This document shows positions 3,827 to 4,600 of a stretch of 6,863 bases of DNA, piece by piece. How positions within the stretch are numbered: the stretch's first letter is position 1; each line of letters opens with the position of its first letter. Source of the stretch: a virus (lineage: Duplodnaviria > Heunggongvirae > Uroviricota > Caudoviricetes); the IMG/VR virus record IMGVR_UViG_2617271072_000002; one strand, given 5' to 3'. The position numbers were made by a program, and so were the translations under genes. The notes below the pieces were generated by a model. The model saw only the letters and a list, made by a program, of their open reading frames with translations, was not told the DNA's origin and searched no databases.

Positions 3827-4182
3827 TGGCCCGTATCGGGGGAACCTGTTATTTCAAAATTGACGGTCAGCAGCTATCGCTGACCGGCGGCATTGAGGTG
3901 CCCATGAACAGGACGGTCAATGATGACATCATCGGCCTGGACGGTTCAGTGGACCGCAAGGAAACTCACCGTGCGCCTTATGTCAAAGGGACCTTCAAGG
4001 TGCCGAAGAATTTTCCGGTGAGCAAAATCACCTCGTCTGATGAGATGACCATCACTGCCGAGCTGGCGAACGGTCAGGTCTATGTATTGTCGTCCGCCTG
4101 GCTGCACGGAGAAGCGAACCATAATGCCGAAGAAGGCACGGTTGATCTTGAGTTCCACGGTGAAGAAGGGGATTACCAGTAA
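3826..4182 (+). CDS. Tail tube protein
   Basis: 118 aa ORF immediately after the sheath, start coupled to the sheath stop (TAATG at 3824-3828). Size and position are typical of myovirus tube proteins. Confidence 0.8.
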   Translation: MARIGGTCYFKIDGQQLSLTGGIEVPMNRTVNDDIIGLDGSVDRKETHRAPYVKGTFKVPKNFPVSKITSSDEMTITAELANGQVYVLSSAWLHGEANHNAEEGTVDLEFHGEEGDYQ

Positions 4183-4451
4183 TGAAAGAGCTTGAGTTAA
4201 AGAAACCGATTATCGCTCATGGTGAGACACTCTCCGTACTGGAGTTTGATGAACCCACCGGGAAGGATGTCCGCGAGCTGGGGTATCCCTACCAGATGAA
4301 TCAGGATGAGTCCGTCAGACTTCTGGCGCATGTGGTGTCGAAATACATTGTGCGGCTGGCGAAAGTGCCGCAAAGCTCTGTCGACCAGATGTCTCCGGCA
4401 GACCTGAATGCAGCGGCGTGGCTTGTGGCCGGTTTTTTCCTCCAGGCCTGA
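4182..4451 (+). CDS. Tail assembly chaperone, short (G-like) product
   Basis: 89 aa ORF between tube and tape measure genes, start coupled to the tube stop (TAATG at 4180-4184). Terminates 10 nt after a slippery heptamer. Confidence 0.7.
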   Translation: MKELELKKPIIAHGETLSVLEFDEPTGKDVRELGYPYQMNQDESVRLLAHVVSKYIVRLAKVPQSSVDQMSPADLNAAAWLVAGFFLQA

Positions 4452-4600
4452 CGGCTGAATACCTCACTGATCGCTTCTTTGACTGCGCCAGTTACTGGCG
4501 CATTAATCCCTTCGAATTGCTGAATATGCCGATCAGTGAAATTCCCTTGCTGGTCAGTCAGGCAAACAGGATAGAGCAGGAGAAACGCACACATGGCTGA
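4182..4600 (+). CDS. Tail assembly chaperone, -1 frameshift fusion (GT-like) product
   Basis: A -1 shift at T_TTT_TTC (4433-4439) moves ribosomes into the frame of track ORF 4418..4600 (FFPPGLTAEY...), which ends at a TGA overlapping the tape measure start (ATGGCTGA). Predicted fusion is about 139 aa. Confidence 0.55.
4433..4439 (+). other. Programmed -1 ribosomal frameshift slippery heptamer T_TTT_TTC
   Basis: Heptamer in X_XXY_YYZ register relative to the chaperone frame (codons TTT 4434-4436 and TTC 4437-4439), in the conserved position between tube and tape measure genes. Confidence 0.6.

What the first reader, a model, noticed from the sequence alone, without database searches (positions are those of the whole stretch)
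4182..4600. Canonical -1 programmed frameshift in the tail assembly chaperone
The 89-aa chaperone ORF stops 10 nt after the slippery heptamer T_TTT_TTC (4433-4439). The -1 frame stays open to 4600 and ends overlapping the tape measure start. This is the conserved G/GT arrangement of tailed phages, with the heptamer in exact X_XXY_YYZ register. No obvious stimulatory structure lies within 5-9 nt downstream.
Basis: partly seen in the sequence, partly recalled or inferred. Interest (0 to 1): 0.45.

Follow-up and report, generated by a model that had tools for sequence, protein, structure and literature searches.

The report
Tail chaperone programmed -1 frameshift site
This is the usual two-proteins-from-one-gene ribosomal frameshift that long-tailed phages use to build their tails, here in an SfV-like prophage of E. 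coli/Shigella; the site is real and strongly conserved, but it is an ordinary member of a well-known class.

Summary
An 89-aa chaperone ORF (4182-4451, Pfam Phage_TAC_7) lies between the tail tube gene and the tape measure gene. It carries T_TTT_TTC (4433-4439) in exact X_XXY_YYZ register. The -1 frame runs on to TGA 4598-4600, overlapping the tape measure ATG (4593) by 8 nt, which predicts a 139-aa fusion.

Taken alone, the sequence is only modestly unlikely by chance (about 3%). The comparative evidence is decisive:
- 31 of 32 related loci, down to 37% protein identity, keep an in-register T_TTT_TTY at the same codon.
- They keep a 50-55-aa -1 extension that ends at the tape measure start, while the 0-frame tail varies from 3 to 21 aa.
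- The extension evolves as coding sequence in the -1 frame only.
- Most loci have no start codon for it.
- All 80 close viral contigs have T6.

The window does carry seven homopolymer indels relative to a 99.9% identical E. coli genome, and these break the sheath and tape measure ORFs. None touches this T-run.

The closest known system is P2 E/E+E'. It has the same Pfam family, the same slip position (GGT TTT TTN), the same product sizes and the same 8-nt overlap.

No stimulatory structure lies 5-9 nt downstream. A hairpin 44 nt downstream (4484-4502) is conserved at synonymous sites and is unexplained. The finding is ordinary and interest is low. The main practical point is that database records for this phage group do not annotate the fusion.

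The parts
3826..4182 (+). Tail tube gene (118 aa), immediately upstream. Its stop overlaps the chaperone ATG (TAATG).
   Evidence: Pfam PF10618 Tail_tube, E=2.4e-33. Annotated as tail tube protein in SfII, SfV and E. coli EC_J_9.
4182..4451 (+). Tail assembly chaperone ORF, the 0-frame product (89 aa; analogue of lambda G and P2 E).
   Evidence: Pfam PF10109 Phage_TAC_7, E=2.4e-15, 56.7 bits against a cut-off of 25, residues 4-86 on profile positions 2-78 of 79. PHROG phrog_166 'tail protein', E=4e-23.
4433..4439 (+). Slippery heptamer T_TTT_TTC in X_XXY_YYZ register. The P-site codon is TTT and the A-site codon is TTC, both read by tRNA-Phe.
   Evidence: Direct reading. T_TTT_TTY is at the same codon in 31 of 32 loci. 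The preceding codon always ends in T although it encodes G, R, N or S. The run is T6 in 80 of 80 IMG/VR relatives. In E. coli, U_UUU_UUC gives 0.12% frameshifting without a stimulator and up to 7.6% with one (PMC4066793 supplement).
4439..4600 (+). -1 frame extension (53 codons plus TGA 4598-4600), the 'T-like' domain of the 139-aa fusion. Conserved motif: (D/N)xAx(Y/F)W(R/K)(I/L)NP(L/F)EL ... A(N/V)RI.
   Evidence: Extension of 50-55 aa in all relatives. Synonymous fraction of differing codons is 0.52 in the -1 frame against 0.09 and 0.10 in the other two; variable columns by codon position are 28/18/40. phrog_32181, E=4e-40. Alignment A4.
4484..4502 (+). Conserved RNA hairpin UGCGCCAG-UUA-CUGGCGCA inside the extension, 44 nt 3' of the heptamer. 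Role unknown, and too far away for a classical stimulator.
   Evidence: -12.7 kcal/mol with flanks, z=-3.7. The stem is near-invariant in 14-17 clade-A homologues, including synonymous positions (TGC 17/17, GCC 16/17, TAC 15/15, CGC 15/17), while neighbouring conserved residues use 2-5 codons. The only polymorphism among the 80 close relatives is the middle loop base. It is absent in the SfIV/phiP27/ST64B clade.
4578..4582 (+). Shine-Dalgarno AGGAG for the tape measure gene, lying inside the -1 extension.
   Evidence: Direct reading; 10 nt upstream of ATG 4593.
4593..5078 (+). Start and first fragment of the tape measure gene. In this window the gene is split into 4593-5078, 5137-5913 and 6033-6428 by homopolymer indels.
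   Evidence: PF10145 partial hits. The gene is an intact 611-aa ORF in SfII, SfV and EC_J_9. The indels are at 5003, 5108-9 and 5896.

Best explanation
This is a programmed -1 ribosomal frameshift in the tail assembly chaperone gene of an SfV-like prophage with a Mu-type contractile tail.

Proposed mechanism:
1. Most ribosomes read 4182-4451 and release the 89-aa chaperone.
2. In a minority, tRNA-Phe occupies both the P site (UUU) and the A site (UUC) of U_UUU_UUC. Both tRNAs slip back one base onto UUU_UUU, where pairing is still cognate (G:U wobble).
3. Decoding then continues with CCU in the -1 frame for 53 more codons to UGA 4598-4600, giving a 139-aa fusion.

By analogy with lambda G/GT and P2 E/E+E', the shared N-terminal domain would coat the tape measure protein. 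The C-terminal extension, present in a fixed low proportion, would recruit the tube protein, so that tube and sheath polymerise around the tape measure. Neither product is expected in the virion.

What is shown here: the anatomy, the register, the deep conservation of the site, the coding constraint in the -1 frame, and the lack of an independent start.

What is inferred: that the slip is ribosomal, how efficient it is, and what the two domains bind.
For: - Register and ORF geometry are as described.
- Family and gene order: the chaperone is Phage_TAC_7 (PF10109) and sits between the tube gene (PF10618) and the tape measure gene (PF10145).
- Conservation: 31 of 32 loci from 8 phages and 24 GTDB genomes keep T_TTT_TTC or T_TTT_TTT at the same codon, down to 37% identity in G. 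Their -1 extension is 50-55 aa and stops at or overlapping the tape measure start codon. The 0-frame tail after the site is 3, 8-9 or 21 aa and is unrelated in sequence.
- Nucleotide-level conservation: the third base of the codon before Phe-Phe is always T (GGT, CGT, AAT, AGT), while adjacent Ala and Val codons use all four third bases.
- Coding signature only in the -1 frame: the synonymous fraction is 0.52 against 0.09 and 0.10.
- No independent start: 21 of 32 loci have no ATG, GTG or TTG in the -1 frame from the upstream stop to 45 nt past the site. Where one exists it lacks an SD.
- Run length: T6 is present in sequenced, named phages (SfV, SfII, vB_EcoM-689R6; SfI matches gap-free in blastn) and in 80 of 80 IMG/VR relatives.
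- Homology to a documented site: P2 gpE is also PF10109. Its T_TTT_TTG frameshift site, annotated in the P2 record and reported as experimentally documented, is at the same profile position in the same GGT TTT TTN context, with 91/142-aa products and the same 8-nt overlap with gene T (PMC3091744).
- Motif competence: U_UUU_UUC and U_UUU_UUU are among the efficient -1 motifs in E. coli (H_HH.U_UU.Y; PMC4066793).
Against: - There is no protein-level evidence for either product in this phage group.
- The bare heptamer gives only about 0.12% frameshifting in a reporter without stimulators.
- No stimulator was found at the classical distance, and no SD-like sequence lies 6-17 nt upstream (direct reading). 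The efficiency in the native context is therefore unknown.
- RNA polymerase slippage that adds one U in the T6/T7 run would give exactly the same protein and cannot be excluded from sequence.
- None of the public annotations examined (phage records, PGAP on E. coli) marks a frameshift here.
Confidence: 0.85

Rival explanations
1. Transcriptional slippage. RNA polymerase occasionally adds one extra U while copying the T6 run (T7 in the SfIV/phiP27/ST64B clade). Standard translation of those mRNAs then yields the same 139-aa fusion.
For: A one-base insertion in the run gives an identical product (direct reasoning). One clade carries T7 (10 of 32 loci). UUUUUUU is under-represented in all frames in E. 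coli genes, which the authors attribute partly to transcriptional slippage (PMC4066793). A weak hairpin (4419-4431) directly precedes the T-run.
Against: The conserved element is a heptamer in a fixed reading register, T_TTT_TTY, with the run starting exactly at a codon third position in 31 of 31 loci. RNA polymerase slippage needs no register. From general knowledge, productive slippage in bacteria usually uses runs of about 8-9 or more A/T, and T6 is short. The upstream hairpin is no more than shuffles give (2 terminator-like sites found, 1.2 expected), and its bases vary among homologues. The homologous P2 site is annotated as a translational frameshift.
Confidence: 0.08
2. Two separate genes. 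The -1 ORF (GTG 4418 to 4600, 60 aa) is translated on its own by independent initiation or by reinitiation after the chaperone stop. Some annotators have assumed this ('hypothetical protein', phrog_32181).
For: A GTG lies at 4418 in the -1 frame. vB_EcoM-689R6 and several genomes annotate a separate 54-60-aa hypothetical protein here.
Against: 21 of 32 loci have no ATG, GTG or TTG in the -1 frame anywhere from the upstream stop to 45 nt past the heptamer. In phiP27 the frame opens only 21 nt upstream. The GTG at 4418 is a by-product of the 0-frame codons GCG TGG and has no SD. In the second clade the 0-frame stop lies 63 nt past the heptamer, inside the conserved part of the extension, so reinitiation would lose conserved residues.
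Confidence: 0.03
3. Artefact or decay. The frame change is a homopolymer sequencing error or a pseudogenising indel in a degraded prophage, and the true gene is one continuous ORF.
For: The window does contain homopolymer-length differences from a 99.9% identical genome (7 events in 6.9 kb), and these split the sheath and tape measure genes. A few database proteins of 137-139 aa span both parts.
Against: None of those indels is in the T-run. It is T6 in EC_J_9, SfV, SfII and vB_EcoM-689R6, in 80 of 80 IMG/VR contigs, and in all clade-A genomes. The 'fused' proteins P0001-P0006 are singletons carrying several additional frame errors each. About 900 E. coli genomes hold the region with an 89-aa 'phage tail assembly protein'.
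Confidence: 0.01

Closest known systems
Bacteriophage P2 E / E+E' programmed -1 frameshift (Christie et al. 2002; Xu, Hendrix & Duda 2004, as cited in PMC3091744)
   Same: - The N-terminal part belongs to the same Pfam family: PF10109, P2 E=1.4e-12 on residues 7-85, here E=2.4e-15 on residues 4-86. In both, the match ends at profile position 78 of 79, right at the slip site.
- The local context is the same: ..V-G-F, GGT TTT TTN.
- The register is the same.
- The product sizes are similar: 91/142 aa in P2, 89/139 aa here.
- The gene has the same position between the tube and tape measure genes.
- The fusion stop overlaps the tape measure ATG by the same 8 nt.
- Neither has a stimulator at the classical distance (PMC3091744).
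- Both have a stable hairpin 44-50 nt downstream.
   Different: - The last base of the heptamer is C or T here (A-site tRNA-Phe) and G in P2 (A-site tRNA-Leu).
- The extension does not match Pfam PF06528 (Phage_P2_GpE) or the P2 E' PHROGs. A profile comparison aligns the two in one register, but only weakly (E=0.066).
- Sheath and tube are described as Mu gpL/gpM-like in the SfV, ST64B and vB_EcoM-689R6 record notes. The head and packaging module of this prophage is also unlike P2 (HK97-type protease and capsid).
Bacteriophage lambda G / GT (Levin, Hendrix & Casjens 1993; Xu et al. 2013, 2014; reviewed in PMC5009743)
   Same: The logic and gene order are the same. A chaperone gene lies before the tape measure gene, and a low-level -1 slip near its 3' end produces a fusion whose extra domain links the tape measure to the tube subunit. 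No strong downstream structure is required.
   Different: Lambda uses G_GGA_AAG with tRNA-Lys. It has a non-contractile tail, the chaperone belongs to an unrelated sequence family, and the T part is longer.
Bacteriophage Mu gp41 (tail assembly chaperone with a -2 frameshift; Xu et al. 2004 and Baranov et al. 2006, as cited in PMC5009743 and PMC2628397)
   Same: The tail module has the same order: DUF2635 gene, sheath, tube, chaperone, a gap of about 140 nt, then tape measure. Mu gp41 also has a weak PF10109 match (E=2.5e-5).
   Different: Mu is reported to shift by -2, into the +1 frame. Here the +1 frame closes 5 nt past the 0-frame stop and the -1 frame is the one conserved. The chaperone here has no PF23746 (Gp41_Mu) match. 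The Mu extension falls in a different PHROG (phrog_12783).

Membership tests
G/GT-type programmed frameshift of long-tailed phage tail assembly chaperones | The gene lies between the major tail/tube gene and the tape measure gene | tested here: met
   Tube gene PF10618 at 3826-4182, chaperone at 4182-4451, tape measure (PF10145) from 4593. The order is the same in SfII, SfV and EC_J_9.
G/GT-type programmed frameshift of long-tailed phage tail assembly chaperones | A second ORF overlaps the 3' end of the chaperone ORF in another frame and lacks its own conserved start | tested here: met
   The -1 frame is open from 4310 to 4600. There is no -1-frame start codon in 21 of 32 loci.
G/GT-type programmed frameshift of long-tailed phage tail assembly chaperones | A slippery sequence in the overlap, in a register that lets the P- and A-site tRNAs re-pair | tested here: met
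   T_TTT_TTC at 4433-4439; both codons are Phe and both re-pair on UUU. The motif class H_HH.U_UU.Y is efficient in E. coli.
G/GT-type programmed frameshift of long-tailed phage tail assembly chaperones | The arrangement is conserved among diverged relatives, with protein-coding constraint on the extension | tested here: met
   31 of 32 loci; synonymous fraction 0.52 against 0.09 and 0.10; T6 in 80 of 80 close relatives.
G/GT-type programmed frameshift of long-tailed phage tail assembly chaperones | Both products are made in a fixed ratio and both are required for tail assembly | not testable with these tools
   This needs tagged expression, mass spectrometry and heptamer mutants.
Pfam PF10109 Phage_TAC_7 | HMM score above the curated gathering threshold | tested here: met
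   56.7 bits against a cut-off of 25, E=2.4e-15.
P2 E+E' (GpE family) | The frameshift extension belongs to Pfam PF06528 Phage_P2_GpE | tested here: not met
   No PF06528 hit at E<=10 for the window extension or for any of 15 homologous extensions. P2 E' itself scores E=1.2e-21. hhalign of A4 against P2 E' gives E=0.066 over 32 columns, which is inconclusive for distant homology.
Mu gp41-type chaperone (-2 frameshift) | The extension is read in the +1/-2 frame, and the chaperone matches PF23746 Gp41_Mu | tested here: not met
   The +1 frame stops at 4456-4458. There is no PF23746 hit.
Transcriptional-slippage cassettes | A long homopolymeric A/T run (typically 8-9 nt or more) with no need for codon register | tested here: not met
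   The run is T6 (T7 in one clade) and its register is strictly conserved. The length criterion comes from general knowledge, not from a tool.

The most novel reading that the evidence does not exclude
The hairpin at 4484-4502 is conserved at synonymous sites and lies 44 nt past the slip site. P2-like phages have a comparable hairpin about 50 nt past theirs. It may be a functional RNA element of Phage_TAC_7 frameshift cassettes. It could be a distal modulator of frameshift efficiency. Alternatively, it could control expression of the tape measure gene or mRNA stability in a stretch that only frameshifted ribosomes translate. Either role might explain how bare heptamers that give about 0.1% in reporters could reach the percent-level efficiencies reported for P2.
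Probability: 0.2. Interest if true: 0.4.

Novelty: new member of a known kind. Interest (0 to 1): 0.15.

Why it matters
The practical value is in annotation. The region occurs in about 1,090 of 5,426 complete E. coli genomes. It is also in the serotype-converting Shigella phages SfV, SfII, SfI and SfIV, and in phiP27 and ST64B. None of the records examined annotates the 139-aa fusion. The extension is either left unannotated or called a separate hypothetical protein in a PHROG of unknown function.

The analysis also ties the SfV-type cassette to the documented P2 E/E+E' site as a homologous frameshift site, not merely an analogous one. It flags a conserved downstream hairpin that could be tested as a modulator. 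Beyond that, it confirms a textbook mechanism.

Tried and rejected
- **Primary papers.** Xu et al. 2004, Allison et al. 2002 (SfV genome) and Christie et al. 2002 (P2) are not in the held library. I could not check whether SfV was already listed in Xu et al.'s survey. The open-access SfI, SfII and SfIV genome papers contain no occurrence of 'frameshift'. Full-text searches for TTTTTTC with tail chaperone terms found nothing.
- **Family and structure searches.** NCBIfam gave no hit for the chaperone, the fusion or the extension. A PDB sequence search gave only spurious weak hits to light-harvesting proteins. Rfam gave nothing meaningful in 4150-4750.
- **Long-range helix.** A helix between 4464-4473 and 4530-4539 gives the window fold z=-3.5. 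It is not conserved, with 68.6% of cells paired, so I rejected it as a stimulator.
- **Upstream hairpin.** The terminator-like hairpin 4419-4431 before the T-run is within chance expectation.
- **Fused ORFs.** The database proteins P0001-P0006 looked like continuous-ORF homologues, but they are error-laden singletons.
- **'Partial' proteins.** NCBI proteins named 'phage tail assembly protein, partial' that match the extension suggested the fusion might be annotated somewhere. The PGAP annotation of an E. coli genome with the phiP27-type locus shows no joined CDS.
- **Link to P2 E' through PHROGs.** There are no shared families.
- **Structure prediction.** I did not run it. The fused sequence is not a contiguous window translation, and the Pfam assignment was already clear.

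Full report
**What is there**

The window is the head-completion and tail module of an SfV/SfII/SfI-like temperate phage. It is 97.6-97.8% identical to SfII, SfV and vB_EcoM-689R6 over 825-6424. It is 99.9% identical over its full length to a prophage in E. coli EC_J_9.

The gene order is head closure, neck, tail terminator, DUF2635, sheath, tube (3826-4182, PF10618), an 89-aa ORF (4182-4451, PF10109 Phage_TAC_7, E=2.4e-15), a 141-nt gap with no annotated gene in most records, and then the tape measure gene from ATG 4593.

**Check of the observation**

- The 0-frame codons are GGT TTT TTC CTC CAG GCC TGA, so T_TTT_TTC at 4433-4439 is in exact X_XXY_YYZ register.
- The 0-frame stop is at 4449-4451.
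- The -1 frame is open from 4310 to TGA 4598-4600, and that stop overlaps ATG 4593 by 8 nt.
- The +1 frame closes at 4456-4458.
- The predicted fusion is 139 aa.

With the chaperone protein held fixed and codons resampled, an in-register heptamer together with an open -1 frame reaching the tape measure start arises in 2.8% of trials. The single sequence is therefore suggestive, not conclusive.

**Comparative test**

I collected 8 phage loci and 24 loci from GTDB species genomes whose chaperones are 37-100% identical.

- In 31 of 32 loci an in-register T_TTT_TTC (22 loci) or T_TTT_TTT (10 loci) sits at the same codon. The exception is a Serratia symbiotica copy with a premature stop.
- The -1 extension is 50-55 aa and ends at or overlapping the tape measure start.
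- The 0-frame tail after the site is 3, 8-9 or 21 aa and is unrelated in sequence between clades.
- The codon before Phe-Phe always ends in T although it encodes Gly, Arg, Asn or Ser. Adjacent Ala and Val codons use all four third bases. This is nucleotide-level selection on the heptamer.
- In the extension, variable columns by -1-frame codon position are 28/18/40. The synonymous fraction of differing codons is 0.52 in the -1 frame against 0.09 and 0.10 in the other two. The extension is therefore a protein read in the -1 frame.
- 21 of 32 loci have no ATG, GTG or TTG in that frame from the upstream stop to 45 nt past the heptamer. It therefore cannot be a conserved independent gene.
- All 80 IMG/VR relatives retrieved have T6.

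**The sequencing-error concern**

The concern was reasonable. Relative to EC_J_9, the window differs by 2 substitutions and 7 homopolymer-length events, at 67, 365, 3439, 5003, 5108-9, 5896 and 6687. These split the sheath gene (2329-3465 and 3371-3826) and the tape measure gene (three pieces). Both genes are intact in EC_J_9, SfII and SfV.

None of the events touches the T-run at 4433-4438. The few database proteins that span both parts are singletons with several further frame errors each.

**Mechanism**

The best-supported reading is tandem -1 slippage of two tRNA-Phe from UUU_UUC to UUU_UUU, followed by decoding of CCU.

In E. coli reporters U_UUU_UUC gives 0.12% without a stimulator, 0.9% with the IS911 stimulator and 7.6% with the IS3 stimulator. 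U_UUU_UUU gives 0.33%, 0.45% and 10.2%. P2's U_UUU_UUG gives 0.12%, 0.25% and 0.77% (PMC4066793 supplement). The class H_HH.U_UU.Y is listed among the efficient motifs.

Function is inferred from lambda G/GT and P2 E/E+E'. The common domain binds the tape measure protein. The extension binds the tube subunit and is needed in a fixed low ratio (PMC5009743).

Transcriptional slippage on the T-run would give the same protein. I rate it unlikely because the codon register is strictly conserved and the run is short, but it is not excluded.

**Stimulators**

- Nothing lies 5-9 nt downstream. The fold of 4440-4500 has z=-0.29, and the alignment fold shows only a 3-bp stem.
- No SD-like sequence lies upstream.
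- A predicted long-range helix is not conserved.
- An 8-bp hairpin at 4484-4502 (UGCGCCAG-UUA-CUGGCGCA; -12.7 kcal/mol with flanks, z=-3.7) is almost invariant in 17 clade-A sequences, including synonymous positions. Cys is TGC in 17/17, Ala is GCC in 16/17, Tyr is TAC in 15/15 and Arg is CGC in 15/17. Flanking conserved residues use 2-5 codons, and another conserved Arg uses 5.
- The only polymorphism in this hairpin among the 80 close relatives is the middle loop base.
- The hairpin is absent in the SfIV/phiP27/ST64B clade.
- At 44 nt it is too far away to act as a classical stimulator. In this clade only ribosomes that have already shifted translate through it. Its role is unexplained.
- P2 and several P2-like phages also fold into a stable hairpin about 50 nt past their heptamer. 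I did not test that one for covariation.

**Comparison with known systems**

P2 gpE is in the same Pfam family, PF10109. Its match ends at the same profile position, right at the slip site. It shares the GGT TTT TTN context, has 91/142-aa products, and has the same 8-nt overlap with the tape measure ATG. The SfV-type site therefore looks homologous to the P2 site.

The extension does not match PF06528 or the P2 E' PHROGs. A profile comparison aligns the two in one register, but weakly (E=0.066).

Mu has a tail module with the same gene order, and the SfV, ST64B and vB_EcoM-689R6 record notes call the sheath and tube here similar to Mu gpL and gpM. Mu is reported to use a -2 shift, and its chaperone belongs to PF23746, which is not matched here.

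**Novelty and verdict**

The kind is textbook (Levin 1993; Xu 2004). I could not confirm from held literature whether the SfV-type site was explicitly listed before. The SfI, SfII and SfIV genome papers do not mention a frameshift. No phage or PGAP record examined annotates the fusion, whereas the P2 record does.

I file this as a new, or at least unannotated, member of a known kind, with low interest.

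Noticed in passing
window 67, 365, 3439, 5003, 5108-5109, 5896, 6687: There are seven homopolymer-length differences (net 0 bases) and only 2 substitutions relative to the 99.9% identical prophage of E. coli EC_J_9. They split the sheath gene (2329-3465 and 3371-3826) and the tape measure gene (4593-5078, 5137-5913, 6033-6428). Both genes are intact in EC_J_9, SfII and SfV. The pattern looks like homopolymer sequencing or assembly error, not decay, so other apparent frameshifts in this window should not be read as biology.
   Followed up: yes
window 4484-4502: An 8-bp, 3-nt-loop hairpin lies inside the -1 extension. Its synonymous sites are suppressed across clade-A homologues, and only the loop base varies. 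It sits 44 nt past the slippery site and is absent in the SfIV/phiP27/ST64B clade. Its function is unknown.
   Followed up: partly
L036 (phage P2) about 2236-2278; also L118-L120: P2 and several P2-like phages have a stable hairpin (CUGAUGGCGG...CCGCCAUCAG, with an inner stem) about 50 nt past their T_TTT_TTG site. It lies in the most conserved part of E'. Earlier work screened only 60 bp downstream and reported none. I did not test it for covariation.
   Followed up: partly
window about 6578-6863 (minus strand): The end of an IS1 element is inserted in a small PH-domain gene between the tape measure gene and the DNA circulation gene. The same insertion is in E. coli EC_J_9 and B1S11. Other near-identical prophages match only up to 6577.
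   Followed up: partly
window 4418-4600; L003 3593-3775: The -1 ORF is annotated in some records as a free-standing 54-60-aa 'hypothetical protein' (FIG00640428; phrog_32181, unknown function). Some NCBI entries named 'phage tail assembly protein, partial' are in fact this -1 frame read from a contig edge. No record joins it to the chaperone.
   Followed up: yes
L023 1501-1575 (Serratia symbiotica); protein P0120 (Candidatus Hamiltonella/Williamhamiltonella defensa): The insect-symbiont copies depart from the rule. The Serratia symbiotica chaperone has a premature stop after 24 codons. The Hamiltonella protein ends ...AGFFFPG, which suggests a longer T-run or an altered site.
   Followed up: no
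window 4445-4452: CAGGCCTG, a perfect 8-nt palindrome, spans the 0-frame stop just after the heptamer. It is conserved only among close relatives, so it is probably incidental.
   Followed up: no
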